In this document: positions 16,815-63,650 of the stretch, piece by piece
Numbering within the stretch: the stretch's first letter is position 1
Layout: each line of letters opens with the position of its first letter
Assembly (NCBI GenBank): GCA_910585035.1
Contig: CAJUEF010000007.1
Coordinates: forward strand, 1,039 to 65,038
From: an uncultured Christensenellaceae bacterium
GTDB lineage: Bacteria; Bacillota; Clostridia; Christensenellales; MGBC116941
Direction: 5' to 3'
Length of the DNA: 64,000 nt
Translations under genes and position numbers: made by a program
Notes under the pieces: generated by a model
The model's input: the letters and a program-made list of their open reading frames with translations, nothing else
What the model was told of the DNA's origin: nothing
Database searches by the model: none

Positions 16815-16882
16815 TTTGTTTTTTTACTTTTCTTTTTCCTACTTCTCTTTTTAAAAAAAGAGAAGTAGGAAGAGAAAAACTA
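16815..16882. repeat. Hairpin repeat element, copy A (core stem 16838-16869)
   Basis: 15-bp perfect stem CCTACTTCTCTTTTT / AAAAAGAGAAGTAGG with flank AAGAGAAAAACTA. Positions 16832-16882 match 63391-63441 at 50 of 51 nt. Lies between convergent genes. Confidence 0.85.
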
Positions 16883-16911
16883 TATACCTAACCAACTGTG
16901 ATTTTCATTAA

Positions 16912-17061
16912 TTATTTTTCACGCTCATATGTTACAACTATACCATATCCAACTGCCATATTAGGACTGACGGCAATAACACGCCATCCCTCAATTGCAA
17001 GTTTATTCATTTCTACCTCTGCCCCTTTAATCTTGTATGTTTCAACTTTGTACTCGTACAT
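16912..17061 (-). CDS. DUF4177-like small protein (49 aa)
   Basis: Not in the ORF track. MYEYKVETYKIKGAEVEMNKLAIEGWRVIAVSPNMAVGYGIVVTYEREK. AAAGGAGGA RBS 7 nt upstream. Confidence 0.6.
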   Translation of the reverse strand: MYEYKVETYKIKGAEVEMNKLAIEGWRVIAVSPNMAVGYGIVVTYEREK

Positions 17062-17231
17062 AAATTTCCTCCTTTAAATCCTAATTTATATAATTGATTA
17101 TAAAATATTTTACCTGTTTTTAGGCTAATCTTTAATAGGTGTACAATTTGAAAAAAAATATAAAGCTCCCACTTTCATAAATGGGAGTTTTTCTTAAATA
17201 TTTACTATAATACATTATGCCGCAAACTGGT

Positions 17232-17288
17232 TTTCTTTTTGCTTCTTTTTCTTTTTTCTAAAAGAAAAAGAAGAGAAAAAACTTTATC
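17232..17288. repeat. Hairpin repeat element, copy B (core stem 17243-17274)
   Basis: 14-bp perfect stem CTTCTTTTTCTTTT-ttct-AAAAGAAAAAGAAG with flank AGAAAAAACTTTATC. Abuts the tetR stop codon. Confidence 0.8.
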
Positions 17289-17861
17289 TCAATATAAAAC
17301 CTTTACCCCGTAAAGAATCATCTGACCTGCCAGTGCGGACATTTGCTCGGGAGTTTCTTTCATACCTTCCTCCAGCCATTTCATGAAAAGACCGGTGCAG
17401 CCCGAAACTATAAAAGAGTAATAATATTCAAAATTTTGAGCATTCTTTTCGCTGTAATATGACATCCAGTCTCTTAAACATTTTTCTCTTACAAGGTTTT
17501 TAAGCCTGTCCATAAACGCAACATCTCCGTTAGGCCCCAGCAACACCATGCACATTTTAGAGTTATCCTGAAGAAACTTAAACACGTCAATCAAAATTGA
17601 AAGAGGACGGGATTCCTCATCGTCCTGTCTATCGTTTAAAATATGATTAAATTCATCAAACATTTCCTGTTCCAGACTGTCAACCATATCAAAAATATCT
17701 TTATAATGAAGATAAAAAGTACCCCTGTTTATATCAGCCAGTTCTGTAAGCTCTTTAACGGATATATCCCTTATGCCTTTTTCTGCCATAAGCTTGGTTA
17801 AAGCTGTTTTTAACTGGCTTTTCGTTTTTCTTACTCTCCGGTCTAAAGCTTTTTCACTCAT
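17289..17861 (-). CDS. TetR/AcrR-family transcriptional regulator
   Basis: N-terminal HTH (RRVRKTKSQLKTALTKLMAEKGIRDISVKELTELADINRGTFYLHYKD). Confidence 0.85.
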   Translation of the reverse strand: MSEKALDRRVRKTKSQLKTALTKLMAEKGIRDISVKELTELADINRGTFYLHYKDIFDMVDSLEQEMFDEFNHILNDRQDDEESRPLSILIDVFKFLQDNSKMCMVLLGPNGDVAFMDRLKNLVREKCLRDWMSYYSEKNAQNFEYYYSFIVSGCTGLFMKWLEEGMKETPEQMSALAGQMILYGVKVLY

Positions 17862-17995
17862 ATTAAGCCCTCCGCATTTGTATTGTGTACATTATAATAC
17901 ACATTTGTTTATAAAACAACATGAGTTAGCGCAAAATATAACTTTTATTTAAAAATGGCAGCAGTCCTAAAAATTTTATAAAGAAATATAAGCAT

Positions 17996-18796
17996 TTATC
18001 CGTGAAACCTGGATAAAAACGCTTTTGTACGCTCGTTCTTCGGATTTTCTATAACCTGGCTTGGGGGTCCCTCTTCTGCAATAACCCCATCGCTCATAAA
18101 AATAACCTTATCGGCAACTTCCGCTGCAAACTCAATTTCATGAGTAACCACAATCATTGTGCTGTCTGATGATTTTAAACCTTTAATAACCTTGAGAACC
18201 TCTCCTGTAAGTTCCGGGTCAAGGGCTGAGGTTGGCTCGTCAAAGCAAAGTATATCAGGGCTAAGACCAAGGGCTCTTGCAATAGCTACCCTTTGTTTTT
18301 GACCGCCGGACAGTTCACATGGATAAGCCTTCGTTTTTTCAAATAAACCCACATTTTTAAGCAGATCTAAAGATTTATTCTTTATATATTCGTTTGCCTG
18401 TTCCATTGTTTTACATCCATTATATTCTTTGCCCTTTTTAAACGCTTCCTTTGCCAGCAGCTCCTGAGCAATCATAACATTCTTTAAAACATTATACTGG
18501 GGAAAAAGATTAAAGGATTGGAACACAAGCCCAAAGTGCAAACGTTTTTTTCTAATTTCTTCATCACTTATACGTGATTTGTTTTCACTGTTAAAAAGAC
18601 TTTCATCGCCAACTATGATTTCACCGCTTGAAGGTGTTTCTAAAAAATTAAGGCATCTTAAAAGAGTGGTTTTTCCGCTCCCTGAGCTGCCTATTATTGC
18701 AAGCACTTCTCCCTTTTCAAGAGAAAAGCTGATGCCCTTTAGCACCTTTGTTTTTCCAAAATCCTTATGTATATCTTTAATTTGTAAAACAGCCAT
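17996..18796 (-). CDS. Polar amino-acid ABC transporter ATP-binding protein
   Basis: Walker [10 protein letters not shown], signature LSGGQKQR, Walker [12 protein letters not shown]. Confidence 0.9.
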
Positions 18797-18801
18797 GCTT
18801 T

Positions 18802-19452
18802 CTATCCTTTATAATAATCCATTTTCTTTTCTGTGTAACTCAGCAGCAGTGAAAGAATACCGCTGAATACCAAAAAGAATACGCCGGTGTAAAACAGCGG
18901 CCAAATAAGGCCTTCCGAGGTATAAGCTGTAGACACCATAACAACTTCCGCAACAGCGATAACTCTTGCAAGAGACGTATCTTTAACAAGAGTTATTATT
19001 TCGTTGCCAATAGGGGGTATTATTCTTTTTAAAACCTGGAACAAAATAATATGAAAAAATATCTGTGCCCTTGTCATTCCAAGCACTTGACCTGCTTCAT
19101 ACTGACCCTTAGATATGCTTTCAATGCCGCCTCTGTATATTTCAGAAAAGTATGCCGAATAGTTTATGACAAAAGCAATGAGCGCCGCTGTCATTCTCGA
19201 ACGGAAAGGCATATCAAAAACAATGCCCGGCATGTAAAGAACAACAAAAAGCTGGAGCATCAGGGGAGTTCCCCTGATGACCCAGACCAGTGTTTTTGTC
19301 AGCCACTTCAGCGGCTTAAATTTAGACATTGACCCATAGGTAACTACAAGCCCAAGAGGCAGCGCCATTATAAGTGTCATAAAAAATATATAGATGTTAA
19401 ACCAAAAGCCTTTTAAAAGCTCAATGTTTATAACCGCAAAAGATGAACCCAT
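18802..19452 (-). CDS. Polar amino-acid ABC transporter permease
   Basis: 216 aa, 5 TM, with an EAA-like loop (..[24 protein letters not shown]..). Confidence 0.85.
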
Positions 19453-19483
19453 AATTATTTCCGCCTATATCCACAAATTAATA

Positions 19484-20362
19484 TTATTGATTATTTGCTT
19501 TTACCTTAATAAGCTCTTGTAATTTATATTTTTCTGCAATTCTATCAAGGGTGCCGTCATTTGCCAGTTCCTGAATTGCTCCGTTTACCTTTTCAAGAGT
19601 TACAGGGCTGTTCTTTCTAAAAGCAATACCGTATTCCTCATCAGCAAAGCCCTTATCGGCAACAACAGCAAGGTCTGCATAATCTGTTCCTTCACCAATA
19701 GAACCGATAGACATTACATAGTCGATAATTCCAATATCCGCTGTTCCTGATTTAATCTCAAGAAGAACCTTTGACTGAGCGTCTACAGCCGTGTAATTTG
19801 CTTCTTTAAAGAATTCATCCTCTTTTGCAACAGTTTCTCCGGCAGAGCCTTTTTCCGCAACAACAGAAGCGCCTTTCACACCTTCGGCAGAAGCAAATTT
19901 TCCTTCATTGCCTTTTTTCACAACCATAACCTGCTTGTTGGCCATATAAGGCAACGATATATCCATGTTTGTTTTTCTTTCTTCATCAATAGTCATACCG
20001 TTCCAAATACAATCAATATTTTTTGAATTAAGCTCTGTCTCTTTAGCAGACCATTCAATTTCAATAAAATTAGCTTTTACACCAAGCTTTTCACAAACAG
20101 CCTTTGCAAACTCTGTTTCAAAGCCTGTAAGTTCTCCGTTTTCGTCCTTGTAATTCATTGGAGCAAAATATGTAACTCCAATAATCATTTCACCTTTGCC
20201 TTCAATATAACTCCAGTCACTGTTTGCATTTGCTGCCGCACCGCTCTGATTATTTGCGTCATTATTACCTGCATCGTTTTTCTTTGAACAGCCGGCAAAA
20301 ACGCCCATAACCATAAGAGCCGCAAGGGCTGTTCCAAGAATTCTCTTTGTCTTTTGTCCCAT
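19484..20362 (-). CDS. Amino-acid ABC transporter substrate-binding lipoprotein
   Basis: Lipobox VFAGC. Family-3 SBP-like body. Start moved to the ATG at 20362, which has GGAGGG 7 nt upstream. Confidence 0.85.
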   Translation of the reverse strand: MGQKTKRILGTALAALMVMGVFAGCSKKNDAGNNDANNQSGAAANANSDWSYIEGKGEMIIGVTYFAPMNYKDENGELTGFETEFAKAVCEKLGVKANFIEIEWSAKETELNSKNIDCIWNGMTIDEERKTNMDISLPYMANKQVMVVKKGNEGKFASAEGVKGASVVAEKGSAGETVAKEDEFFKEANYTAVDAQSKVLLEIKSGTADIGIIDYVMSIGSIGEGTDYADLAVVADKGFADEEYGIAFRKNSPVTLEKVNGAIQELANDGTLDRIAEKYKLQELIKVKANNQ

Positions 20363-20758
20363 GTGAAATCCCTCCAAAATAATATTGTGATGTTATTATA
20401 ACATAATTAGTCTTTGTGTTAGCAAAGTATGGCGATAGCCATAAAACCGCAAGGTTTTAATTATGTTCCAATGTTCTCCGGAATGCTCAAAATCTTTGAT
20501 TTTGCCAGTAATCCGTAAAGTTATTATACATTATCATTTTACCAAAGTAAAGCGATAAAATAAATTTTATTAAAATGATTTTGCAAATATTGAGGATATT
20601 ATAAGGCTTTATCGGTTAATAGGGTTTATTATGCAAACCTTCGTAGTATCAGTAGACATTTAACTTTGCAGATGTTATTATTTTACTATGCTCAATAAAG
20701 CGCCTGATTTAAAAGCTCTTTTTGAGCATTATAAAAAATAAAAAGGATTTGTGCATTG

Positions 20759-22027
20759 ATGAAAATAGCCGCTCTTACAATATTTATATTGACCTATGCC
20801 GCGCTTCTGTTTTTACCTAAATGGCGGGCGCATGTTGCGCTTATTATGGGTATCGCCATGGTTGTTATCGGTGTGCTTCCATCTGAAAAAGTAATAAGTT
20901 CCATAGATTGGAACGTAATAATGATGATTGCAGGCACAATGGGAATAGTATCTTTATTTATAGAATCTAAAATGCCTGCGCTTATGGCTGACTGGCTTAT
21001 AAATAAAACCCCCAATGTAAAGTGGGCGATTATTTCTCTTTCGCTGTTTGCCGGCTTTATTTCTGCATTTGTAGATAACGTTGCAACAGTTCTTATGGTT
21101 GCTCCCGTTGCCATGACCATTGCAAGCAAGCTGGATATTTCGCCTGTACCTGCCATAATAAGTATTTCCGTATCTTCCAATTTGCAGGGAGCAGCTACCC
21201 TTGTGGGGGACACCACATCAATCCTCCTTGGCGGATATGCAGATTTAGACTTTTTTGACTTTTTTATATTTCAGGGAAAACCGGGGCTGTTTTGGATAGT
21301 TCAAATAAGCGCTTTAACCTCAGCTTTGGTGCTATATTTTGTCTTTCGTAAAGATAACGCTTCCATATCCCAGCAAAGCATGACAAAGGTTACCGATTAT
21401 TTTCCAACAATTCTTCTTCTTGGAATGATAGTGCTGCTTATAATATCATCCTTTTTTCCTGGCAAACCGTCCTTTACTGCAGGGCTTATCTGTTTTAGCC
21501 TTATGATAATCGGAATAATTTATGACATCATAAAAAGCGGCAGCCTGGACGGATTTAAACAAACCTTTTTAGAAATAGATTACATAACTCTTGCTCTTCT
21601 TGCAGGTCTTTTCGTTGTAATTGCCGGCATTACCGAAGCAGGAATAATTGACGATATCAGCAGGCTGTTTTTAAAAGTCGGCGGCGGGAATATATTTATT
21701 TTGTATTCACTGCTTGTATGGGCTTCAGTATTCTTCTCGGCATTTATAGACAACATACCATATGTTGCAACCATGCTCCCTGTAACTGCGTCTATTGCCG
21801 CAAGTATTGGAGTTGAACCTTACCTACTTTATTTCGGTCTCCTTTGCGGAGCCACTCTTGGAGGTAATTTTACACCTATTGGGGCAAGCGCGAACATAAC
21901 TTCTCTCGGTATCCTCCGTAAAGCGGGACATGAGGTTAAAACAAAAGACTTTATGAGTATAAGCGTGCCTTTCACCCTTGCTGCCGTTGTAACAGGATAT
22001 ATACTTGTATGGATTATATACAGATAA
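20759..22027 (+). CDS. ArsB/NhaD-superfamily (citrate-transporter-like) anion permease
   Basis: About 420 aa with 10 or more TM segments. The sequence style (..VDNVATVLMVAPV.. / ..IDNIPYVATMLPV.. duplicated motif) is typical of this superfamily. Confidence 0.7.
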   Translation: MKIAALTIFILTYAALLFLPKWRAHVALIMGIAMVVIGVLPSEKVISSIDWNVIMMIAGTMGIVSLFIESKMPALMADWLINKTPNVKWAIISLSLFAGFISAFVDNVATVLMVAPVAMTIASKLDISPVPAIISISVSSNLQGAATLVGDTTSILLGGYADLDFFDFFIFQGKPGLFWIVQISALTSALVLYFVFRKDNASISQQSMTKVTDYFPTILLLGMIVLLIISSFFPGKPSFTAGLICFSLMIIGIIYDIIKSGSLDGFKQTFLEIDYITLALLAGLFVVIAGITEAGIIDDISRLFLKVGGGNIFILYSLLVWASVFFSAFIDNIPYVATMLPVTASIAASIGVEPYLLYFGLLCGATLGGNFTPIGASANITSLGILRKAGHEVKTKDFMSISVPFTLAAVVTGYILVWIIYR

Positions 22028-22049
22028 AAAAGATGCATAAGCATCTTTT

Positions 22050-22457
22050 TTATTTTAATTCAGATGTACAGTGAGGGCAGCGGGAAGCTTCTATATTAAC
22101 AGTCTCTTTGCAATAAGGACATTGTTTTTCACTTATAAGGGTTTCTTTCCCTGTAATATTGAGCTTATTTATCCCTTTGACGAAAACAAATATGGCGAGA
22201 GCAATAATAAAAAAATTTAATACGGCGGCAATAAAATTACCATAATTTATAACCGAAGCAGTTTCACCTTTACCAACAGCCAGCTTCCACGAAGTAAAAT
22301 CTATTCCAACAGTAAAAACAGATATTACAGGCATAATTACATCATTTACAAGGGCGTTTACTATACTTGTAAAAGCTGTTCCTATAATAACGCCCACAGC
22401 AAGATCAACCACATTACCCTTTGATATAAATTTTTTAAACTCATTTACAATGCTCAT
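22050..22457 (-). CDS. mscL: Large-conductance mechanosensitive channel with C-terminal zinc-ribbon extension
   Basis: FKKFISKGNVVDLAVGVIIGTAF is the MscL signature. The C-terminus carries CPYC..x13..CPHC. Confidence 0.9.
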   Translation of the reverse strand: MSIVNEFKKFISKGNVVDLAVGVIIGTAFTSIVNALVNDVIMPVISVFTVGIDFTSWKLAVGKGETASVINYGNFIAAVLNFFIIALAIFVFVKGINKLNITGKETLISEKQCPYCKETVNIEASRCPHCTSELK

Positions 22458-22567
22458 TTAAACACTTCCTTTTCATTAATTATGTTATAACCAGTTTACC
22501 AGATAATTACTTGGTGTTTTACATAATTTTACTTAAAATAACATGATTGTTAATTTATTCACTATTG

Positions 22568-22596
22568 TTGACAAAGCAAAAATATGATGATATAGT
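22568..22596 (+). promoter_or_regulatory. Sigma-A promoter with extended -10, TTGACA-17 nt-(TGa)TATAGT
   Basis: TTGACA at 22568-22573, TG at 22588-22589 and TATAGT at 22591-22596. Confidence 0.6.
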
Positions 22597-22635
22597 GTTA
22601 GCAATAAAAATATTTTCGTAAAAGGAGAAAGCATT

Positions 22636-22722
22636 ATGAAGAAGTTTAACGCAGCTAAGATGATGATGGAAATGTGCATGCTTTGCCGCGCTGATTTTCC
22701 AATGTGCTTTCTGTCATACTAA
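22636..22722 (+). CDS. 28-codon Met/Cys-rich mini-ORF (MKKFNAAKMMMEMCMLCRADFPMCFLSY); candidate leader peptide of metQNI
   Basis: AAGGAG lies 8 nt upstream. 7 Met and 3 Cys in 28 codons, with 5 Met in codons 9-15. Followed 42 nt later by a strong terminator. Confidence 0.45.
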   Translation: MKKFNAAKMMMEMCMLCRADFPMCFLSY

Positions 22723-22764
22723 CGAATTTTGAATTAAAAAAGCAAAATTATTTTGTATTACCTA

Positions 22765-22797
22765 AGGGAAGCTTTATTGGAAGCTTCCCTCTTTTAT
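22765..22797 (+). terminator. Intrinsic terminator (candidate attenuator) in the metQNI leader
   Basis: 10-bp perfect stem AGGGAAGCTT-tattgg-AAGCTTCCCT followed by CTTTTATTAT. Confidence 0.7.
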
Positions 22798-25732: not shown

Positions 25733-25765
25733 ATTACTTTTACAATACTATCTTATATCGTATAT

Positions 25766-25820
25766 GGTTTTTCTCTTGTTATTTCTCTTTTTTTAAAAAG
25801 AGAAGTAAGAAAAGCAAAAA
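25766..25820. repeat. Hairpin repeat element, copy C (core stem 25779-25808)
   Basis: TTATTTCTCTTTTT / AAAAAGAGAAGTAA, 14 bp with one G.T. Outer arms GGTTTTTCTCTTG / GAAAAGCAAAAAATC. Lies between convergent genes. Confidence 0.75.
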
Positions 25821-25821: not shown

Positions 25822-26115
25822 TCACATTCCGTAATATGTTCTGCAGGTTTTGCCACCCTTTTCAACCTTTACTTTGCCTGCCTTACAGCTAAAATGAATG
25901 TTGAAAACGCAGTTTTCTGCAGAGCAAGAAATAGACGTGTCAAAATCCTGCCCAAATTCAACATCGCCTTTTAAAGACATTTTATAATCAGGCAGACCAT
26001 CATACGAATTACACCGGGCTCCTCCTGCCTTTGCCGACATCCTTAAATTTGAACAGCAGCATTGGCATTTTTTATTATGCACGCAGTCCAGCGCTAAACA
26101 TTCCAGTTGATGCAT
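25822..26115 (-). CDS. DUF1540 (Cys-rich) domain protein, two repeats
   Basis: LDCVHNKKCQCCCSNLRM.. and SCSAENCVFNIHFSCKAGKVKV.. match the C-x2-C-x-(H/F)N..C pattern of DUF1540. Confidence 0.7.
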   Translation of the reverse strand: MHQLECLALDCVHNKKCQCCCSNLRMSAKAGGARCNSYDGLPDYKMSLKGDVEFGQDFDTSISCSAENCVFNIHFSCKAGKVKVEKGGKTCRTYYGM

Positions 26116-26120: not shown

Positions 26121-26285
26121 TTACTGAATGTTTGGATCTTCTTTAAAGCTAAGGCATCTTGTTCTGTGCTCTTTAACATCCTTTTGGCAGTAGCTAACCT
26201 CGATTTGTGGAAGTTGGCATCTGTTGCCTGCATGATGTGTGCACTCTGTAACTGTACATTGAATAAGCTGTGTTCCAATACCCAT
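26121..26285 (-). CDS. DUF1540 small protein (54 aa), absent from the ORF track
   Basis: MGIGTQLIQCTVTECTHHAGNRCQLPQIEVSYCQKDVKEHRTRCLSFKEDPNIQ. AGGAGG RBS 10 nt upstream. Stops 5 nt before the next DUF1540 gene. Confidence 0.65.
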   Translation of the reverse strand: MGIGTQLIQCTVTECTHHAGNRCQLPQIEVSYCQKDVKEHRTRCLSFKEDPNIQ

Positions 26286-32775: not shown

Positions 32776-32851
32776 GCTGATGTAACTCAGGCGGTAGAGT
32801 ACCACCTTGGTAAGGTGGAAGTCACGAGTTCGAGTCTCGTCATCAGCTCCA
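32776..32851 (+). tRNA. tRNA-Thr (anticodon GGU)
   Basis: GCTGATGTAACTCAGGCGGTAGAGT-ACCACC-TTGGTAA-GGTGG..GTTCGAGTC..CATCAGCTCCA. 76 nt with an encoded CCA. Confidence 0.92.
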
Positions 32852-33425: not shown

Positions 33426-33602
33426 ATGAAAACTGAAAAGCAAAAATTTACAATTACATGTGATGAAGAGCTTTTAAATAAAATAGATGATTTTTGGTTT
33501 GAAAACAGGTTTCGCAACAGAACCCAGGCAACCTTGGAATTAATTCGCCTTGGTCTTAATGCCGCAGAGAAAGAAAAAGAAAACGCAAAAAAACCCCGTT
33601 AG
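33426..33602 (+). CDS. Ribbon-helix-helix (CopG/Arc-like) small DNA-binding protein
   Basis: ..KFTITCDEELLNKIDDFWFENRFRNRTQATLELIRLGL.. reads as a beta-strand then two helices, the RHH pattern. Start moved to the ATG 9 nt after GGAG. Confidence 0.55.
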   Translation: MKTEKQKFTITCDEELLNKIDDFWFENRFRNRTQATLELIRLGLNAAEKEKENAKKPR

Positions 33603-33620
33603 CAAGCGGGGTCTTTCTTT
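33591..33620 (+). terminator. Intrinsic terminator overlapping the stop of the RHH gene
   Basis: CCCCG-ttagcaag-CGGGG followed by TCTTTCTTT. Confidence 0.55.
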
Positions 33621-33640
33621 ACCTTTTGTTACCTTTTTTC

Positions 33641-34040
33641 TTTACCTTTCTTTTAGAAAAAAGAAAGGTAAAACCAAAGAAAACCTAATTACCGATAAAC
33701 ATATCTTTTGGTAAAAAGCCGTTTTTAACTTCAAAATGGGTATATAGGTTTTTCTTTTTAGCTCTTTTTCTTTCTTTTAGAAAAAAGAAGGGTAAAACCA
33801 AAGAAAACATGATTACCGATAAATATATTTTTTTGTATAAATCCGTCTTTAAATCTAAAACAAATATATAAGTTTTCTTTTTCAAAAAAGAAAAAGTAGA
33901 TAAATTATGATATAATAGCTTTATCCACATTTATTTTTTACCGATAAATATATTTTTTAAGGCTAAAACAAATGCAGGGTTTTCTTTTTGTTACTTTTTC
34001 TTTTTTCTAAAAGAAAAAGTAAAAGAAAAACTAAAAAAAC
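33641..34040. repeat. Tandem array of about three ~124-bp units of the hairpin element (hairpins at 33641-33672, ~33771-33789, ~33873-33894 and 33991-34022)
   Basis: TTACCGATAAA recurs at 33689, 33813 and 33938 (period 124-125 bp). ACCAAAGAAAAC..ATTACCGATAAA is shared by units 1 and 2. Each unit ends in a CTTTT/AAAAG hairpin. Confidence 0.8.
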
Positions 34041-47429: not shown

Positions 47430-47521
47430 TGGCGGAGAAGGAGGGATTCGAACCCTCGAATCGCTCATCACGATTACACGATTTCCAATCGTGCGCGCTC
47501 GACCAACTACGCGACTTCTCC
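47430..47521 (-). tRNA. tRNA-Ser (anticodon GGA)
   Basis: Reverse complement is GGAGAAGTCGCGTAGTTGGTCGAGCGCG-CACGA-TTGGAAA-TCGTG-long variable arm-GAGGGTTCGAATCCCTC-CTTCTCCGCCA. Confidence 0.9.
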
Positions 47522-50453: not shown

Positions 50454-50730
50454 TGTCGTGCACCCGAAAATCGATAATAACAGCCGCTAAATAAAACAAA
50501 GGTTTAAAACTACTACTCGGTTGACCTGCGGCACACTTCCAAATCCGCTTAATGCTGCTTCCGTCAAGACCTGACATGGTTCACGGCAGGAAGTCGCACA
50601 GGGCCGAGTCATCAAACGCCTTAAATTAATCCTCGCTTAAAAACAGCTGCTAAACCTTAAATCGGGAATTAAACCCTGCTATAGCGGATTGCAGGTACAA
50701 GGAGCCGCTAATTCCCCGTCTAGCACGACA
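50454..50730 (-). ncRNA. ffs: Signal recognition particle RNA, large Bacillus-type (with Alu domain)
   Basis: Minus strand carries GCGGCTCCTTGTACCTGCAATCCGCTATAGCAGGG (Alu domain) and GTGAACCATGTCAGGTCTTGACGGAAGCAGCATTAAGCGG (domain IV). Both are near-matches to B. subtilis scRNA as I recall it. The termini pair as TGTCGTGC/GCACGACA. Confidence 0.85.
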
Positions 50731-53399: not shown

Positions 53400-53418
53400 T
53401 TTAATTACTTTAATTTCT

Positions 53419-53447
53419 GCTGTTTTTCTTTTAAAAAGAAAAACAGC
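53419..53447. repeat. Hairpin repeat element, copy E
   Basis: 14-bp perfect stem GCTGTTTTTCTTTT / AAAAGAAAAACAGC with flank ACAAAAACTTTACATACC. Lies 20 nt after the stop of the preceding gene. Confidence 0.75.
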
Positions 53448-53583
53448 ACAAAAACTTTACATACCATAAAAGCCGCCTTATTTTAAACGTTATATACCGC
53501 AGATTAATAAAAAAATTTTTAAAATTCCACACCTGTTTTACAGTTATATATTATAATTACAAGGAAATGTCTATTGAAAGAAG

Positions 53584-54382: not shown

Positions 54383-54413
54383 TTACTTTTTCTTTTGAAA
54401 AAAGAAAAAGTAA
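54383..54413. repeat. Hairpin repeat element, copy F1
   Basis: 14-bp perfect stem TTACTTTTTCTTTT-gaa-AAAAGAAAAAGTAA with right flank CAAAAAGAAAACCTTG. Confidence 0.8.
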
Positions 54414-54478
54414 CAAAAAGAAAACCTTGTATATTATTTAAGGATTAATATCTTGCTTTGTAATTAAGTTTCTTTGGC

Positions 54479-54508
54479 GTTACCTTTCTTTTCTTAAAGA
54501 AAGGTAAC
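54479..54508. repeat. Hairpin repeat element, copy F2 (flank in inverted orientation)
   Basis: 13-bp perfect stem GTTACCTTTCTTT-tctt-AAAGAAAGGTAAC. The flank on the minus strand, AAAGAAACTTAATTACAAAGCAAGATATTAATCC, matches the flank of copy I. Confidence 0.8.
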
Positions 54509-55417: not shown

Positions 55418-58951
<3,534 letters not shown>

Positions 58952-59145
58952 CTATAATTTTATATAATTTATTTGTTTTTTAATTGATGCTTTTTCATTA
59001 TAATATGGATGAAAATATTGTGTCAAATAAAAGTCGTATATTTTAGCAGAATTCAGCTGGATTATATGATTATTGTAAAAATTTATACACAAAATCCATC
59101 ACTGTCCATACTTTAAAATCTATGTAAGCTTTGTATTTGATAAAA

Positions 59146-59200
59146 CCTTTTCCGCTTTTCTTTCCACCTTTTTTTAAAAAGAAAAAGTAAAAGAAATAGC
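59146..59200. repeat. Degenerate hairpin repeat element, copy G
   Basis: CTTTTCCGCTTTTCTTTCCACCTTTTTTT / AAAAAGAAAAAGTAAAAGAAA. The arms are imperfect and only the central ~6-8 bp pair. Confidence 0.4.
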
Positions 59201-59248
59201 GCTTGTTATCGCAAAAACTGGTTATAATAACCTCAATAAATTTTTAAA

Positions 59249-60175
59249 TTAAATTTCAAGGCTGGCGCTGTCCAAATCATATGGCGTAGTCTGATAAACG
59301 TAATAATTAAGCCAGTTGGAAAACAGCAGACTTGCATGAGCGCGCCAAGTCATCATAGGCGTTTTGGATGGGTCGTCGCCAGGAAAGTAGTTACATGGAA
59401 CATCCGGCTCCAGCCCCTTTGCCACATCTCTTTGATATTCTTTCTTCAGCGTATCCACGTCATATTCCGAGTGACCGGTTACAAACACGTGCTTGCCGTT
59501 TTTGCTGGTTATAATATGGCATCCTGCTTCCTTGGAAAATGTAAGCAGCTCCAGCTTTTCACAGGATAGCACAGCCTCTTTGTCTATTCCCGTGTACCTG
59601 CTGTGAGGTGCATAAAAAAAATCGTCAAAGCCTCTTACCAGCGGCGCTTGGGGATTTAACACACTGTGTTTATAAACTCCTGACAGCTTCTTTTCAAGCT
59701 CGTGCTTTTCAACGCCGTAATGATAATAAAGCCCCGCCTGAGCCGCCCAGCAAATATACATAGTGGAAAAAACGTGATGCTTAGCCCATTTCATTATGGT
59801 TTCCAGCTCATCCCAGTAGCGGACTTCTTCAAAATCCATCTTTTCCACAGGTGCGCCTGTAATTATCATTCCGTCATATTTAATATCCTTTATTTCGTCA
59901 AAGGTGTGATAAAATTCGTCCATATGCTCTTTGCTTACGTGCCGCGGCGTGTGACTTGCGGTTATAAGCAGTGTCGGCTCGATTTGCAGCGGAGTGTTGC
60001 CTATAACCCGCAAAAGCTGAGTTTCTGTCACAATTTTTGTTGGCATAAGGTTTAAAATGAGTATACGCAGCGGACGTATATCCTGGCTGCTCGCCCTTGT
60101 TTCATCCATTACAAAAATATTTTCAGATTGAAGAACAGAGGAAGCAGGCAGGTTTTTAGGTATTTTTACAGGCAT
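59249..60175 (-). CDS. metA: Homoserine O-acyltransferase (MetA family)
   Basis: [23 protein letters not shown] and an active-site region ..YICWAAQ... Start moved to the internal ATG that matches the usual MetA N-terminus. Confidence 0.9.
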
Positions 60176-60352
60176 TATTTTTTCCCTTTCGACTTTTTTC
60201 AAAATTGTTATACGGATATTATACTACTAAGCAATGTAAATGCAATAGATTATAAATCAAAGCCGCAAATAAAATTGTTTTTTTCTGGGTAAAATATCCT
60301 TGATATTTTTGTATAAAACTGCTTACAATTTGAAAGGGGATAAGTTAAATTA

Positions 60353-61597
60353 ATGAAGCTTTTAATAGATAAGAGCAGAGATTTACAGGGTAAAATAACA
60401 ATTCACGGCTGCAAAAATTCCATACTTCCCATAATGGCGGCAAGCCTTCTGACAAAAAAAGAAGTTGTTTTGCTGGACATACCCCATATATCCGATGTGG
60501 AAGTAATGATTAAAATAATGACAGCCCTTGGCTCAAAGATAAAAAGAGAAGGCCGGGTGCTGATAATTAATAATGAAAACATAAACCCGGGGAAAATCGC
60601 CTCGGCGGATATGAGCAAAATCCGTGGCTCTTCTCTAATTTTAGGACCGCTCCTTGCAAGAGTAAAATTTGCAAAAATGGTTTTTCCCGGTGGCTGCAAA
60701 ATAGGCAAGCGCCCTATAGACCTGCATCTGGACGGCGTGCGTAAGCTCGGCGCAAAGGTTGATATAGAAGGAGAGCTTATAACCGTAAAGGGAAATTTAA
60801 AGCCCTGCACCCTGCGGCTGGATTTCCCCAGCGTTGGCGCAACTGAAAATCTTATGATGGCGGCGGTATTTACGGCGGGATATACCAAAATCGAAAACGC
60901 AGCCAGAGAGCCGGAAATATACGACCTTGGCAAATTCCTGAACCAAACGGGCGCAAGAGTGTTCGGTCACGGCACGGATACTATTATAATAGAAGGAGTT
61001 AAAACGGTTTACGGCGGAGTATACACTCCAATGCCCGACAGGATTGAGGCGGGAACATATATGATAGGCGTTGCAGGCTGCGGCGGCGACGTGCTTTTTG
61101 AAAACGTAAATCCAAGACACCTTAATCCCCTCACTTTTAAACTAAGGCAGATGGGAATAAATGTCACGCCTTATTATAACGCTGTTAGAATAAAATCCAA
61201 AGGCAGTTTTTCAGGCTCAAACATTATATGTATGCCCCATCCCGGCTTTCCCACAGACCTCCAAGCGCCTATGTGTTCTCTTTTTGCCATTGCAGGGGGT
61301 GAAAGCCTGGTGACGGATAAAGTGTTTTCCAGCCGCTTTGTTCACACTAAGGAACTTAACAAAATGGGAGCAAACATAAAGCTATCGGGAAACACCGCCA
61401 GAATAAAGGGCGTTGAGGAGCTTACAGGCGGTGAAGTTGAAGCCGCCGACCTGCGCGGCGGCGGCGCTCTTATGCTTGCAGGCATGTTCGCCTCTGGACA
61501 TACGGTGATAAGCGGTGTAAAGTATATAAATAGAGGCTACGGAGATTATGTGGAAAAATTAAGAGGCGTGGGGGTTAAAATAAAGGCGGCATATTAA
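60353..61597 (+). CDS. murA: UDP-N-acetylglucosamine 1-carboxyvinyltransferase
   Basis: HGCKNSILPIMAASLL and the catalytic loop PGGCKIGKRPIDLH. Confidence 0.93.
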   Translation: MKLLIDKSRDLQGKITIHGCKNSILPIMAASLLTKKEVVLLDIPHISDVEVMIKIMTALGSKIKREGRVLIINNENINPGKIASADMSKIRGSSLILGPLLARVKFAKMVFPGGCKIGKRPIDLHLDGVRKLGAKVDIEGELITVKGNLKPCTLRLDFPSVGATENLMMAAVFTAGYTKIENAAREPEIYDLGKFLNQTGARVFGHGTDTIIIEGVKTVYGGVYTPMPDRIEAGTYMIGVAGCGGDVLFENVNPRHLNPLTFKLRQMGINVTPYYNAVRIKSKGSFSGSNIICMPHPGFPTDLQAPMCSLFAIAGGESLVTDKVFSSRFVHTKELNKMGANIKLSGNTARIKGVEELTGGEVEAADLRGGGALMLAGMFASGHTVISGVKYINRGYGDYVEKLRGVGVKIKAAY

Positions 61598-61623
61598 AGC
61601 CGCCCCTTTAATATCAATGTAAT

Positions 61624-62541
61624 ATGGATAGAGATATTTTTTTAAAAAGAGTGCTGCCGACAATATGCTTTGTTGCGATTATAATATTTTCTATGTATAT
61701 GTATAATCCGCAAAAAAATTATATTAGAATGGAAGTGCTTCCACAAGTGGATAAGACGGATACAAGGTCAATAAAAGTGCTGGTGGATGATAAAATACAG
61801 GAAATGGGGCTGGAGGAATACTTAGTGCATGTGGTTGCCGGCGAAATGTATCCCGATTACCACATAGAGGCCCTTAAAGCCCAGGCGGTTACCGCCCGTA
61901 CATATACATATAAAAAGCTGCAGTCCGGCGGCTGCGGCAATAAAGGCGCACAAATATGCGACGATATAAATCACTGTCAGGCTTATGCCGCAAGCATACC
62001 TGCTGAACATAAAGAGAGAATGGAATATGCGGTTTATTCCACCAAAGACGAAATTATTACTTATGAAGGAAAACCCATTACCGCACTTTTTCACAGCACC
62101 TCAGGTGGGATGACCGAGGATAACATTAACGTCTTTGGCGAAAATCTTCCTTATTTAAAAAGTGTTATAAGCCAGGGCGAAGAAGGCACCCCAAGATACC
62201 GCCAGCGTGAATCCTTTTCCATTGAGGAGATAAAGGAAAAGGCAAAAGCCGAAGGTAATACAATAAAAGTTATTGAAAGGCTGCCAACCGGCAGGGTGCG
62301 CAGTGTTGACGTTTTCGGAAAGACCATGAGCGGCAAAGAACTCAGGGAACTTTTAGGTCTGTCCTCTGCCAATTTTGAAATAAGCGTTAGCGGTGATAAC
62401 GTGGTATTTACCACAACGGGTTACGGTCACGGCGTTGGTCTTAGCCAGGTGGGCGCTAATTACATGGCAAAGCAGGGCAGTACATACGATGAAATAATTA
62501 AACACTATTATACAGGGGTTGAATTATCTAAAATCCAATAA
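61624..62541 (+). CDS. spoIID: Stage II sporulation protein D (lytic transglycosylase)
   Basis: EEYL..VVAGEM, AQAVTARTY, ALFHSTSGGMTE and GHGVGLSQ motifs. Confidence 0.88.
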   Translation: MDRDIFLKRVLPTICFVAIIIFSMYMYNPQKNYIRMEVLPQVDKTDTRSIKVLVDDKIQEMGLEEYLVHVVAGEMYPDYHIEALKAQAVTARTYTYKKLQSGGCGNKGAQICDDINHCQAYAASIPAEHKERMEYAVYSTKDEIITYEGKPITALFHSTSGGMTEDNINVFGENLPYLKSVISQGEEGTPRYRQRESFSIEEIKEKAKAEGNTIKVIERLPTGRVRSVDVFGKTMSGKELRELLGLSSANFEISVSGDNVVFTTTGYGHGVGLSQVGANYMAKQGSTYDEIIKHYYTGVELSKIQ

Positions 62542-62554
62542 GCAGGTATTAATT

Positions 62555-62582
62555 CCAAAGGTATTGGCAAAAATACCTTTGG
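62555..62582 (+). other. Stem-loop overlapping the RBS of the following M23 gene
   Basis: CCAAAGGTATT-ggcaaa-AATACCTTTGG. The 3' arm runs into GGAGGTG, the RBS for the ATG at 62594. Confidence 0.55.
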
Positions 62583-62593
62583 AGGTGTAAAAC

Positions 62594-63292
62594 ATGAACG
62601 CTAAGCAAAGGATAATGAGCTTTTTGGATAAGCAGGGCTTTTATATCGTGCTTGCTCTTTGTTTAGTGGTTATTTCCGTAACTGCCATATTATCTCTGAC
62701 TAATGATAAAAGCGCCGACGATCAGGCGCAAACCCCGCCTGAAAGCCAGGTGCAGGAAGAGGATCAGGGTCAGCAGGCAAACTATGCCGGTGAAAATATG
62801 GTTATGGAGGACGTGACCACAAGCGAGCAAACAAAGGAAGCAACCGAGAAAAAGGCAGAGCCTAAGCTTTCCCTTGCAAGACCTGTTCAGGGCGATGTTA
62901 TTATGGAATTTGCAAACGACAAGCTGCTCTATAACAGCACGTTAAAGCAATGGACCACTCATGACGGAATTGATATTGCCGCCGCAGAGGGAACCCCTGT
63001 TAAAGCCGCTCTTGGCGGCACTGTGGAATCAGTTTCGCAGGACGCTCTTATGGGACAAACCATAGTGCTTTCCCATGAAAACGGATATAAAACCATTTAT
63101 TCCAATCTCGCAAAGGAATTAAGCGTGGCTCAGGGTGATAAAGTTTCTAAAGACCAGGAAATAGGCAAGGTTGGCAAAACCGCCATAAGCGAGTTCGACC
63201 AAGAAGCCCACATTCATTTCGGGCTTGTTTCCGGTGACCGCAAATTGAACCCAATGGAGTTTATGAGCGGTATTAAAGTAAAATCAAAATAA
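62594..63292 (+). CDS. Membrane-anchored M23/LytM-domain protein, SpoIIQ-like by position
   Basis: N-terminal TM segment. LytM motifs HDGIDIAA and HIHFGL. The gene order murA-spoIID-M23 matches that around clostridial spoIIQ. Confidence 0.7.
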   Translation: MNAKQRIMSFLDKQGFYIVLALCLVVISVTAILSLTNDKSADDQAQTPPESQVQEEDQGQQANYAGENMVMEDVTTSEQTKEATEKKAEPKLSLARPVQGDVIMEFANDKLLYNSTLKQWTTHDGIDIAAAEGTPVKAALGGTVESVSQDALMGQTIVLSHENGYKTIYSNLAKELSVAQGDKVSKDQEIGKVGKTAISEFDQEAHIHFGLVSGDRKLNPMEFMSGIKVKSK

Positions 63293-63339
63293 CAGGTATA
63301 CTTAAAAGGGCTGCACATCCCTGGAATTTCAGTCATTTT

Positions 63340-63376
63340 AAACAGGCGCATAAAACATGCGTCTGTTTTATTTTTT
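63340..63376 (+). terminator. Intrinsic terminator
   Basis: AAACAGGCGCAT-aaaac-ATGCGTCTGTTT followed by TATTTTTTT. Confidence 0.8.
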
Positions 63377-63390
63377 TGCTTTCTCTTTTA

Positions 63391-63441
63391 CTTTTTCCTA
63401 CTTCTCTTTTTAAAAAAAGAGAAGTAGCAAGAGAAAAACTA
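63391..63441. repeat. Hairpin repeat element, copy H (core stem 63398-63427)
   Basis: CTACTTCTCTTTTT / AAAAAGAGAAGTAG with flank CAAGAGAAAAACTAATTACTAAACAAGATATT. Matches copy A at 50 of 51 nt. Confidence 0.85.
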
Positions 63442-63587
63442 ATTACTAAACAAGATATTTTTACTGCATTTTACGATTAAGGAGAAATGACAAAATGAAT
63501 AAAAGCCTGCAAAATCACAGGCTTTCATTCATTCCGACAAGACAGGTGATAGCCATGTCAGAAAGCTACATATTATTACTTTTACCA

Positions 63588-63650
63588 TTACTTTTCTTTT
63601 TTAAAAAAAAGAAAAGTAACAAAAGAAAAAACTAATTACAAAATAAGATA
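63588..63650. repeat. Hairpin repeat element, copy I (core stem 63588-63619)
   Basis: TTACTTTTCTTTT / AAAAGAAAAGTAA with flank CAAAAGAAAAAACTAATTACAAAATAAGATATTTAAACC. Confidence 0.8.

What the first reader, a model, noticed from the sequence alone, without database searches (positions are those of the whole stretch)
16815..63650. Dispersed family of homopyrimidine/homopurine hairpin elements with compensatory stem changes and a conserved flank
At least 13 intergenic copies of an AT-rich hairpin occur in this window. The 5' arm is pyrimidine-only and the 3' arm purine-only, with core CTTTT(T)CTTTT / AAAAG(A)AAAAG. Stems of 13-15 bp, perfect except for one G.T pair in the 25779-25808 copy, lie at:
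- 16838-16869 (CCTACTTCTCTTTTT)
- 17243-17274 (CTTCTTTTTCTTTT)
- 25779-25808
- 33641-33672 (TTTACCTTTCTTTT)
- 33991-34022 (TTACTTTTTCTTTT)
- 53419-53447 (GCTGTTTTTCTTTT)
- 54383-54413
- 54479-54508 (GTTACCTTTCTTT)
- 63398-63427
- 63588-63619
Degenerate copies lie near 33771, 33873 and 59146. The distal stem base pairs differ between copies but stay complementary, so the structure is conserved rather than the sequence. Most copies also share a one-sided flank, GAAAA(A)C-TAATTAC-..AAGATATT. Positions 16832-16882 and 63391-63441 are identical at 50 of 51 nt despite being 46 kb apart, which argues for recent copying. No copy lies in a confident CDS. Several sit between convergent genes or abut stop codons, so they may act as bidirectional terminators. 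However, the stems have very few G:C pairs, and the flank conservation looks more like a REP/MITE-type element or a small-RNA family. I do not recognise it as a described element.
Basis: seen in the sequence. Interest (0 to 1): 0.72.

Follow-up and report, generated by a model that had tools for sequence, protein, structure and literature searches.

The report
Triplex-prone AT-rich hairpin repeat family
An uncultured gut Clostridia genome is peppered, about once every 6 kb, with a small non-coding repeat made of a pyrimidine/purine hairpin followed by a mirror-image copy of its purine arm, and this three-part layout, which could fold into a DNA triple helix, is kept across copies whose sequences differ.

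Summary
The window holds 10 full and about 5 partial copies of an AT-rich hairpin. Its 5' arm is pyrimidine and its 3' arm purine. All copies lie in the 12.8% of the window that is intergenic, far above chance (9 vs 0.10 in intergenic-only shuffles). Stem covariation is confirmed: 9 of 14 pairs change on both sides.

It is an exact mirror repeat (R1) of the paired purine run, set about 5 nt after the stem and ended by a C. R1 tracks the stem in 13 of 14 copies across six sequence variants (permuted partners P<=1e-5). Only 2 of 13 copies have a Watson-Crick partner for R1.

Y arm, R arm and mirror R is the layout of a class II potential intrastrand triplex motif, like E. coli BoxC/TMECO. This family is A/T-rich, sequence-variable, far denser and carries a further conserved 3' flank (TAATTAC..AAGATATTT).

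The copies are not terminators, since canonical terminators sit beside them. They match no Rfam family and are absent from most sampled relatives. They break short-read assemblies, and one variant has overwritten older copies at two loci.

Verdict: a new variant of a known kind, REP-like in behaviour. Triplex formation is inferred, not shown.

The parts
16838..16887 (+). Full copy, variant v1. Y arm 16838-16852, loop AA, R arm 16855-16869, mirror segment R1 AAGAGAAAAA + C 16870-16880, flank TATATAC 16881-16887. It starts 25 nt after the P-type ATPase stop (16812) and lies between convergent genes. It is preceded by a remnant Y arm (TTACTTTTCTTTTT) of an older copy.
   Evidence: ortholog in L033
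17207..17273 (-). Full copy on the minus strand. Hairpin 17243-17272; complement of R1 (GGTTTTCTTTTTGC) 17229-17242; diverged flank 17207-17230. It starts 15 nt after the TetR-family gene stop (17289). A canonical terminator follows at 17187-17166(-).
25748..25808 (-). Full copy, v1-type, with one G.T pair. Hairpin 25779-25808; complement of R1 25766-25778; flank (CATATAC..AAGATAG) 25748-25767. It lies 13 nt after the stop of an uncalled DUF1540 paralog ORF (25822-26115, -). A terminator follows at 25732-25699.
33641..33705 (+). Full copy. Hairpin 33641-33672; R1 block ACC-AAAGAAAA-CC 33673-33685 (9-nt turn); flank TAATTACCGATAAACATATC 33686-33705. First unit of a 124-bp tandem array, just after terminator 33593-33612.
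33765..33828 (+). Second array unit. The stem has decayed (TTTTTCTTTCTTTT / AAAAGAAGGGTAAA), while R1 (33797-33809) and flank TGATTACCGATAAATATAT are kept.
33873..33899 (+). Partial copy: hairpin TTTTCTTTTT-CA-AAAAAGAAAA with no mirror segment. An extended -10 promoter-like TGATATAAT follows at 33908-33916.
33977..34022 (-). Full copy on the minus strand. It lies in the presumed 5' leader of the dnaD-like gene (start 34054). Hairpin 33991-34022; complement of R1 (GGGTTTTCTTTTTG) 33977-33990. Five short-read contigs break here.
54383..54426 (+). Full copy. Hairpin 54383-54413; R1 block C-AAAAAGAAAA-CC 54414-54426. It lies 34 nt after the M15 peptidase stop (54348). There is no upstream T-rich partner for R1. 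Two short-read contigs end here.
54447..54508 (-). Full copy on the minus strand, convergent with the 54383 copy. Hairpin 54479-54508; complement of R1 54468-54478; flank (TTAATTACAAAGCAAGATATT) 54447-54467.
63398..63460 (+). Full copy, v1, 50/51 identical to the 16838 copy. Hairpin 63398-63427; R1 block C-AAGAGAAAAA-C 63428-63439; flank TAATTACTAAACAAGATATTT 63440-63460. It sits after the terminator of the M23/SpoIIQ-like gene. Two ~98-99% identical contigs, L020 and L022, carry a different variant at this site (A5GA5 with matching R1 in L020; L022 ends inside the copy).
63588..63653 (+). Full copy. Hairpin 63588-63619; R1 block C-AAAAGAAAAAA-C 63620-63632; flank TAATTACAAAATAAGATATTT 63633-63653. 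It encodes the C-terminal half of small ORF 63555-63635. It is absent from the related strain L020.
59156..59199 (-). Degenerate copy between metA and the PFOR gene. On the minus strand the Y arm TTACTTTTTCTTTTT is intact and the R arm is broken. It is absent from the same spacer in sister species L032 and L033.
53418..53448 (.). Doubtful member. A 15-bp Y/R hairpin with a GCTG/CAGC base, no mirror segment and no flank.
13821..13843 (.). Doubtful member. An 11-bp Y/R hairpin overlapping the stop codon of the ABC-3 permease gene, with no mirror segment. A canonical terminator follows at 13857-13888.

Best explanation
This is a lineage-specific, dispersed, non-coding repeat with a core of about 45 nt, or about 65 nt with its flank.

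Shown from sequence:
- The layout is TTAC/CTAC + 7-11 nt pyrimidine run (Y), a 2-4 nt purine loop, the complementary purine run + GTAA/GTAG (R), a roughly 5-nt turn, an exact mirror copy of the paired purine run (R1), a C, and then often TAATTAC-N6-AAGATATTT.
- Y-R-mirror R is the layout of a class II (purine-motif) potential intrastrand triplex. The complementary strand has the pyrimidine-motif layout (Hoogsteen-Y-R).

Inferred mechanism:
- When the DNA is single-stranded, during replication, transcription or repair, Y and R form the A.T-rich hairpin and R1 folds back into its major groove. The triplets would be A*A.T and G*G.C, or T*A.T and C+*G.C on the other strand.
- This fold, rather than the sequence, is what is preserved.
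- The fold is proposed to stall polymerases and promote template switching or gene conversion between copies. That would spread and homogenise the family, overwrite older copies and destabilise neighbouring DNA.

In genomic behaviour it works like REP or BoxC/TMECO elements. It is tolerated mainly in the short space after stop codons, co-oriented with the upstream gene. It is not a terminator. No protein partner is known.
For: 1. Family and structure are real: Y-first hairpins 11 vs 0.13 expected and purine-first 0. In intergenic-only shuffles the count is 9 vs 0.10. Stem covariation shows 9 of 14 pairs changed on both sides, with 0 of 500 shuffles as high.
2. Mirror segment: homopurine/homopyrimidine mirror repeats number 14 vs 0.27 expected, and 12 of them abut the hairpins. 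Hairpins with an anchored mirror number 6 vs 0 (maximum 0 in 300 shuffles).
3. Three-way covariation: in 13 of 14 oriented copies R1 reversed equals the paired purine run, starting exactly at the loop-proximal pair and ending at a C. This holds across six variants (A5GAGA2, A6GA4, A4GA5, A4GA3, A3GA3, A5GA5). Permuting partners gives P<=1e-5. The mirror match beats the best direct-repeat match in every discriminating variant.
4. R1 is not explained by Watson-Crick pairing. Only 2 of 13 copies have a perfect upstream complement, and copies 63588, 54383 and 54479 have none.
5. At orthologous sites other genomes carry other variants, and where the mirror segment lies inside the contig it matches. 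L020 at the 63398 site has A5GA5 with matching R1. L031 upstream of dnaD has T4CT6 with T6CT4. L033 after the ATPase stop has an A6GA4 stem, but the contig ends inside the copy so its R1 is not seen.
6. Turnover and instability. The v1 core (50/51 identical) sits at two loci inside remnants of older copies. At least 11 short-read contigs end in copies, and one scaffold has an N-gap in a copy. The ATPase and M23-PFOR blocks are contiguous in L032 and L033 but 46 kb apart here, and each is followed by a v1 copy.
7. Position. All full copies are intergenic. Four or five of 10 start within 40 nt after a co-oriented stop, against 10.5% expected (P=0.015).
8. Precedent. Class II triplex repeats (BoxC/TMECO) are intergenic, form triplexes in vitro and are associated with local instability (PMC4666352).
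Against: - No experiment or energy model for triplexes was available, so triplex formation is inferred from sequence symmetry alone.
- A*A.T purine-motif triplets are weaker than G*G.C. For TMECO itself, stable triplex formation in vivo was not detected.
- The 4 bp at the stem base (TTAC:GTAA) must open to provide the 5-nt turn, and two copies need a 9-nt turn.
- The arms are low-complexity, with 1-2 informative G per arm.
- The copies form subfamilies related by descent, so the permutation test shows association, not independent events.
- The conserved TAATTAC..AAGATATTT flank has no role in a triplex model and hints at a protein or RNA function.
- The orientation bias (9 of 12 co-oriented with the upstream gene) is more easily explained by an RNA-level or insertion-level effect.
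- The mode of spread is unknown.
Confidence: 0.5

Rival explanations
1. It is a REP/MITE-like mobile hairpin mobilised by an unseen HUH/Y1-type (RAYT or IS200/IS605-like) enzyme. The hairpin is the protein's handle and the R1 + TAATTAC stretch is its guide or cleavage region. The mirror symmetry is a by-product.
For: - Copies are dispersed and nearly identical (50/51).
- Both orientations occur, with clusters and convergent pairs like BIMEs.
- There is a conserved one-sided flank containing TTAC about 19 nt from the hairpin foot, and TTAC/CTAC at the stem base.
- Distribution among sister species is patchy.
- From memory, not tested: IS608 uses TTAC as its target and cleavage site.
Against: - No transposase lies in the ~74 kb examined.
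- No target-site duplication or terminal inverted repeats were seen.
- A protein site should be sequence-conserved, yet R1 varies and tracks the stem in register.
- Mirror symmetry has no known role in HUH recognition.
Confidence: 0.2
2. It is an RNA-level element. As part of 3' UTRs the A-U hairpin and A-rich tail modulate mRNA decay or processing, as REP stabilisers do. In the antisense orientation, in 5' leaders such as dnaD, the U-rich/U-rich/A-rich order could form a U.A-U RNA triple helix near the ribosome-binding site.
For: - Nine of 12 copies are co-oriented with the upstream gene. They lie 11-40 nt after its stop and often before its terminator, so they are transcribed.
- The three antisense copies all sit just upstream of a gene start. 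The dnaD-leader copy recurs in a species with 68% DnaD identity.
- RNA hairpins are predicted at -12 to -27 kcal/mol, z -2.4 to -6.9.
Against: - Purine-motif triplexes do not form in RNA (PMC4666352 introduction). In the majority orientation the mirror segment would therefore have no structural role.
- No expression data are available.
- There is no Rfam match.
- Copies also lie outside transcripts, after terminators (33641, 63398).
Confidence: 0.15
3. They are unconventional (bidirectional) transcription terminators.
For: Several copies lie between convergent genes or just after stop codons. The ATPase/DUF4177 convergent pair has no other hairpin between the two genes. In L032 the same position holds a canonical terminator instead.
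Against: - None is called by the terminator scan.
- Stems have 1-3 G.C pairs and are followed by purines, not a T-tract, on both strands.
- Canonical terminators lie immediately downstream of copies 17243 and 25779 and L017:12363, and upstream of 33641 and 63398.
- Copies also occur in 5' leaders.
Confidence: 0.05
4. They are binding sites of a DNA-binding regulator or nucleoid protein, or a chance product of AT-rich low-complexity intergenic DNA.
For: The TAATTAC..AAGATATTT flank is conserved, and the intergenic DNA is AT-rich.
Against: - Flanking genes have unrelated functions.
- The core varies in sequence but not in symmetry.
- Shuffles of intergenic DNA give 0.10 hairpins and no hairpin-plus-mirror element.
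Confidence: 0.05

Closest known systems
BoxC / PIT element / TMECO of E. coli and other Proteobacteria (class II intrastrand triplex motif; Holder et al. 2015, PMC4666352; Hoyne et al. 2000 as cited there)
   Same: - Three consecutive blocks on one strand: pyrimidine, purine, then a second purine block able to lie antiparallel on the first.
- Always intergenic, present on both strands, sometimes as convergent pairs.
- Not linked to transposons.
- No promoter or terminator character.
- Associated with local genomic variability.
   Different: - A/T-rich (1-2 G per arm) rather than G/C-rich, with no sequence similarity to CCCTCNCCC...GGGNGAGGG.
- About 12 copies in 74 kb, against 23 in 4.6 Mb.
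- TMECO copies are nearly identical in sequence, whereas this family has at least 6 variants that keep the three blocks in register.
- The stem extends 4 bp beyond the triplex-capable part.
- It carries an extra conserved 3' flank.
- It is biased to the first 40 nt after stop codons, whereas TMECO lies more often upstream of ORFs.
- It occurs in a Clostridia lineage.
REP / BIME elements (repetitive extragenic palindromes)
   Same: - A short extragenic palindrome in many copies, mostly in 3' untranslated or convergent intergenic space.
- Co-transcribed with the upstream gene.
- Occurs singly or in mixed-orientation clusters.
- Lineage-specific expansion.
   Different: - No RAYT was seen.
- Stems are strictly pyrimidine-then-purine and A/T-rich.
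- The mirror segment is not a feature of REPs.
H-DNA-forming homopurine/homopyrimidine mirror repeats
   Same: R, a 5-nt spacer and R1 form a perfect homopurine mirror repeat (7-11 nt arms).
   Different: The arms are short for supercoil-driven H-DNA. The Watson-Crick partner is supplied on the same strand by the Y arm, so the fold needs single-stranded DNA rather than supercoiled duplex.
Intrinsic (rho-independent) terminators
   Same: A hairpin shortly after a stop codon.
   Different: The polarity is reversed: T-rich before the stem and A-rich after it. The stem is not G+C-rich, there is no T-tract, and the copies coexist with true terminators.

Membership tests
Class II potential intrastrand triplex motif (ITxF definition, PMC4666352) | Three consecutive blocks 5'-pyrimidine / purine / reverse-Hoogsteen purine-3', with the third block a mirror of the second | tested here: met
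   13 of 14 copies have an exact anchored mirror over 7-11 nt.
Class II potential intrastrand triplex motif (ITxF definition, PMC4666352) | Stem of 6-15 nt with at most one mismatch, and loops of 1-6 nt | tested here: inconclusive
   Stems are 7-11 nt, the first loop is 2-4 nt and the second loop is 5 nt in most copies, provided the GTAA:TTAC base pairs open. In copies 33641, 33765 and 54479 the second loop is 9-10 nt, outside the definition.
Class II potential intrastrand triplex motif (ITxF definition, PMC4666352) | Triplex formation shown physically (CD, NMR, melting) | not testable with these tools
   ViennaRNA models only Watson-Crick structure.
TMECO / BoxC | Consensus CCCTCNCCC-N3-6-GGGNGAGGG-N3-GGGNGAGGG | tested here: not met
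   The arms are T/A-rich with 1-2 C/G, and no such sequence is present (definition).
REP / BIME | Short imperfect palindrome, extragenic, many copies, in clusters of alternating orientation | tested here: met
   All full copies are intergenic. There is a cluster at 33641-34022 (+,+,+,-) and a convergent pair at 54383/54479.
REP / BIME | A cognate RAYT (TnpA_REP) gene in the genome and a conserved tetranucleotide at the palindrome foot | not testable with these tools
   Only about 74 kb of the genome was reachable, and it holds no transposase. TTAC/CTAC at the stem base is conserved, but its role is unknown.
MITE | Terminal inverted repeats derived from an IS, target-site duplication, usually 100-400 bp | tested here: not met
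   The unit is about 45-65 nt. No direct repeat flanks the v1 copies, and the left flanks are unrelated.
Intrinsic terminator | G+C-rich stem followed by a T-tract | tested here: not met
   No element appears among the terminator-like sites, and purines follow the stem on both strands.
Any Rfam family | Score at or above the family gathering threshold | tested here: not met
   Only SRP RNA and three tRNAs pass. At E<=1 there is only sub-threshold hairpin noise.

The most novel reading that the evidence does not exclude
The three-way register (pyrimidine arm, purine arm, mirror purine segment) is maintained by selection because a nucleic-acid triple helix actually forms and matters in vivo. It could form in single-stranded DNA, or as a U.A-U RNA triplex in leaders such as dnaD. 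That would make this family the first case where comparative covariation, rather than in-vitro biophysics, supports a functional triple helix in a bacterial repeat. It would also provide a natural set of variants for testing it.
Probability: 0.25. Interest if true: 0.8.

Novelty: new variant of a known kind. Interest (0 to 1): 0.6.

Why it matters
Whether triplex-capable repeats in bacteria are functional, or are merely sequences that can fold in a test tube, has been open since BoxC/PIT elements were described. Their near-identical copies offer no comparative test.

This family provides at least six natural sequence variants in which three segments stay in register. That is the kind of evidence that established RNA secondary structures.

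If the fold is real, the family gives a tractable system of short oligos and swap-R1 controls. It could be used to ask how such structures spread, stall polymerases and reshape genomes.

There is also a practical consequence. These elements fragment short-read assemblies of this gut lineage. At least 11 short-read contigs examined end inside a copy.

Tried and rejected
1. Public-collection scans with a strict hairpin+flank pattern (4 true hits in the window, 0 expected):
- GTDB species representatives gave 1 hit and JGI metagenomes gave 5. All lack the pyrimidine arm and are chance matches.
- IMG/VR gave 0 hits for two patterns.
- The family is therefore not found outside this lineage at that stringency.

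2. Covariance model: not built. The MAFFT alignment of oriented copies (A2) is not structurally consistent, because the C/G position shifts between variants. Explicit hairpin and mirror scans with shuffles were used instead.

3. Terminator hypothesis: rejected.

4. Long imperfect hairpin (R1 pairing with an upstream T-rich run): suggested by the MFE folds, but rejected as the reason for R1 conservation. Only 2 of 13 copies have the partner.

5. Direct-repeat reading of R/R1: rejected. The mirror match is longer in all discriminating variants.

6. Promoter, sigma-factor or operator readings of TAATTAC..AAGATATTT: inspection found no convincing match, and the question is left open.

7. Strain-level presence/absence at the 16838/17243 and 54383/54479 loci: all same-species assemblies carry the copies.

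8. The apparent 113-bp difference in L013 is a scaffold N-gap.

Full report
CONTEXT. The window is chromosomal DNA of an uncultured Clostridia-class bacterium with about 38% G+C.
- It encodes a large SRP RNA and three tRNAs, AddAB, DnaD/DnaI-like proteins, PFOR, and SpoIID and SpoIIQ-like proteins.
- It is all but identical to contig CASRTS010000001.1 of MAG GCA_949438445.1: 100% over 10.9 kb at the left end and 99.94% over 11.4 kb at the right end. The same species is present in two further MAGs and several ENA and Logan assemblies.
- Named relatives are distant. The best named DnaD hit is a Christensenellales protein at 34% identity. PFOR identity falls from 84-90% in four unnamed sister contigs to 69% or less in everything else.

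OBSERVATION.
- Hairpins with a perfect stem of >=9 bp and a >=85% pyrimidine 5' arm number 11 in the window. Dinucleotide shuffles give 0.13, and none has the opposite polarity.
- When only the 8.2 kb of intergenic DNA is shuffled, the count is 9 against 0.10.
- All ten full copies lie in the 12.8% of the window that is intergenic.
- On a loop-anchored alignment of nine copies, 96% of cells pair and 9 of 14 pairs change on both sides. No shuffle out of 500 reaches the observed score, and sliding the partners by 1-3 columns drops pairing to 65-74%. The stem covariation is therefore real.
- The 50/51 identity of 16832-16882 and 63391-63441 is confirmed.

THE KEY FINDING: A MIRROR SEGMENT. Once oriented, each full copy reads as follows:
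- TTAC or CTAC plus a pyrimidine run (Y);
- a 2-4 nt purine loop;
- the complementary purine run plus GTAA or GTAG (R);
- a short turn, usually GTAAC or GTAGC when the last four stem bases are counted;
- a second purine run, R1;
- a C.

It is the exact reverse, not the complement, of the paired purine run. It starts in register at the loop-proximal base pair and ends at a pyrimidine.

| Example copies | R | R1 |
|---|---|---|
| 63398, 16838, 25779 (-) | AAAAAGAGAA | AAGAGAAAAA |
| 63588 | AAAAAAGAAAA | AAAAGAAAAAA |
| 54383, 17243 (-), 33991 (-) | AAAAGAAAAA | AAAAAGAAAA |
| 33641 | AAAAGAAA | AAAGAAAA |
| 54479 (-) | AAAGAAA | AAAGAAA |

- A general mirror-repeat scan finds 14 homopurine or homopyrimidine mirror repeats against 0.27 expected. 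Twelve of them abut the hairpins.
- Across 14 copies (10 from the window, 4 from related DNA), 13 show a complete anchored mirror. Permuting R1 among the 11 distinct R/R1 combinations reaches the observed full-match count in 1 of 100,000 trials and never reaches the observed summed score. The mirror match is longer than the best direct-repeat match in every variant where the two can be told apart.
- All 14 R1 segments are followed by C.
- MFE folds sometimes pair R1 with T-rich sequence upstream of the hairpin. However, only 2 of 13 copies have a perfect complement there, and copies 63588, 54383 and 54479 have none.
- R1 is therefore constrained relative to the purine arm on its own strand. 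Mirror symmetry of a homopurine run is the hallmark of triplex-forming DNA.
- Y-R-mirror R is the class II (purine-motif) intrastrand triplex layout. The complementary strand has the pyrimidine-motif layout (PMC4666352).
- Caveats: triplex formation itself was not and could not be tested here. The arms are low-complexity, and the variants are subfamilies related by descent.

REMAINING FLANK. After R1 and its C, most copies continue with TAATTAC (or TATATAC, CATATAC, TGATTAC), about six bases, and AAGATATTT or AATATATTT. This roughly 22-nt stretch is sequence-conserved. The triplex reading does not explain it, and I found no convincing promoter or operator match. The total unit is about 65 nt.

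POSITION AND ORIENTATION. Taking R1 as the 3' side, window copies 16838, 33641, 33765, 54383, 63398 and 63588 are on the plus strand. Copies 17243, 25779, 33991 and 54479 are on the minus strand. There is no strand bias.
- With the two extra copies found in the right-hand extension of the contig (L017 11664- and 12363-), 9 of 12 are co-oriented with the gene upstream of them.
- Copies typically start 11-38 nt after that gene's stop codon. The genes concerned are the ATPase, TetR, a DUF1540 paralog, an RHH-like gene, the M15 peptidase and rhodanese.
- In the window, 4 of 10 start within 40 nt after a co-oriented stop, or 5 of 10 if the uncalled DUF1540 ORF 25822-26115 is counted. The expectation is 10.5% (P=0.015).
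- The three exceptions (33991-, 54479-, L017 11664-) all lie just upstream of a gene start. In two cases the purine arm abuts the Shine-Dalgarno sequence.

NOT TERMINATORS. No element is picked up by the terminator scan. Both strands show purines, not a T-tract, after the stem.
- Canonical G+C-rich terminators lie 45-55 nt downstream of copies 17243, 25779 and L017 12363.
- They lie just upstream of copies 33641 and 63398.
- Rfam has no match at gathering thresholds. At E<=1 only sub-threshold generic-hairpin hits appear.

DISTRIBUTION AND DYNAMICS. A strict hairpin+flank pattern (4 window hits, 0 expected) found only chance matches lacking the Y arm in GTDB representatives and JGI metagenomes, and nothing in IMG/VR.

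Among sister-species contigs:

| Contig | Relationship | Length or flanks searched | Elements found |
|---|---|---|---|
| L032 | PFOR 88% | 21.7 kb | none |
| L029 | DnaD 75% | 10.2 kb | none |
| L030 | DnaD 64% | 8.6 kb | none |
| L034 | PFOR 90% | short flanks | none |
| L035 | PFOR 84% | short flanks | none |
| L031 | DnaD 68% | 4.5 kb | contig begins in a copy upstream of dnaD; same place and orientation as 33991, variant T4CT6 with matching T6CT4 |
| L033 | PFOR 85% | 11 kb | contig begins in a copy 11 nt after the ATPase stop; same place as 16838, A6GA4 stem, contig ends inside the copy so R1 is not seen |

The family is thus older than the species but has expanded here to about 12 full copies in 74 kb.
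- In two ~98-99% identical contigs (L020 and L022, two independent assemblies) the 63398 site carries a different variant. In L020 it is A5GA5 with matching R1; L022 ends inside the copy. Copy 63588 is absent from L020.
- In the window both v1 copies, 16838 and 63398, are preceded by the left part of the older resident copy's Y arm (TTACTTTTCTTTTT and TTACTTTTT). The v1 core has therefore overwritten earlier copies, as expected for copy-to-copy conversion.
- At least eleven short-read contigs end inside copies, and one scaffold has an N-gap in one.
- In L032 and L033 the ATPase-CsoR-Zn-ribbon block adjoins the M23-SpoIID-HTS-PFOR block. In the window the two blocks are 46 kb apart, and each is followed by a v1 copy. 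This is suggestive of repeat-associated rearrangement but is not proven.
- No transposase is encoded in the reachable 74 kb.

INTERPRETATION. The best-supported description is an A/T-rich, sequence-variable, high-density relative of the BoxC/PIT/TMECO type of class II intrastrand-triplex repeat. Its genomic behaviour is REP-like.
- Shown: the family, its polarity, the stem covariation, the mirror covariation, the non-terminator character, the intergenic post-stop bias, the lineage restriction, and turnover at orthologous sites.
- Inferred: that a triple helix forms in single-stranded DNA, that this fold is what is preserved, and that stalling and template switching spread and homogenise the copies.
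- Rivals that keep real weight are a hairpin recognised by an unseen HUH-type enzyme, and an RNA-level role in 3' UTRs and 5' leaders. The conserved TAATTAC flank argues for the first and the orientation bias for the second.

NOVELTY. The class is described (Holder et al. 2015 and the work cited there). A/T-rich motifs were counted in that survey, but no such family was characterised. I found no description of this one. The new elements are the three-way covariation, the density, the extra flank and the host lineage.

Noticed in passing
window 63555-63635 (+); L020 1880-1951: A small SD-preceded ORF encodes MSESYILLLLPLLFFFKKKKSNKRKN. Its C-terminal half is encoded by copy 63588: the Y arm gives LLFFF and the R arm plus R1 give KKKKSNKRKN. 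The related strain L020 has an element-free version, MSELYILMLITMFLIILVKELKK, followed by a G+C-rich terminator. The hydrophobic-then-basic character is kept. It looks like a small membrane peptide or type I toxin-like gene.
   Followed up: partly
window 33639-33882 and 33908-33916: A 124-bp tandem repeat (2 units, 83% identity) carries two element copies plus TTACCGATAAAYATAT. A third partial unit and an extended -10-like TGATATAAT follow. The dnaD-like operon therefore appears to have a ~140-nt leader containing copy 33991. Sister species L029 and L030 have a plain TGCTATAAT promoter and no elements there.
   Followed up: partly
window 13905-16812 versus 55418-63292; L032 and L033: In two sister species the ATPase-CsoR-Zn-ribbon genes are directly adjacent to M23-SpoIID-(EPSP)-HTS-PFOR. 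In the window the two blocks are 46 kb apart, and each is followed by the 50/51-identical v1 copy. This may be a repeat-associated rearrangement.
   Followed up: partly
window 25822-26115 (-): A 97-aa ORF with a DUF1540 domain (E=9.8e-5, above the Pfam cut-off) was not called in the public gene calls, which list only the neighbouring 54-aa DUF1540 gene at 26121-26285. Its stop lies 13 nt before copy 25779.
   Followed up: partly
L002-L006, L019, L022, L031, L033, L038, L039, L024: Short-read contigs of this species and its relatives repeatedly start or end inside element copies, and one MAG scaffold has an N-gap in copy 17243. The family limits assembly contiguity, so copies will be under-counted in fragmented assemblies.
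   Followed up: yes
window 33585-33699 (-), 33586-33682 (-): There are weak sub-threshold Rfam hits to Phe_leader and Trp_leader (28.9 and 23.7 bits, against gathering scores of 55 and 41). They are most likely generic hairpin or composition noise, with the terminator at 33593-33612 and copy 33641 falling inside the matched span. They are not leader peptides.
   Followed up: no
L020 1590-1790: Relative to the window, the related strain has an extra ~230 nt between the element and the small ORFs. It includes a G+C-rich terminator, a promoter-like ATATAAT, and the hairpins GGAGCAAAGTTCGTTTTGCTCC and GTTTTTCTTTA/TAAAGAAAAAC. Its function is unknown.
   Followed up: no
window 50456-50728 (-), 32776-32848 (+), 47433-47521 (-), 12006-12091 (-): Large (Bacillus-type) SRP RNA (153.5 bits) and three tRNA genes. 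These are ordinary and useful only for placing the organism among the Firmicutes.
   Followed up: no
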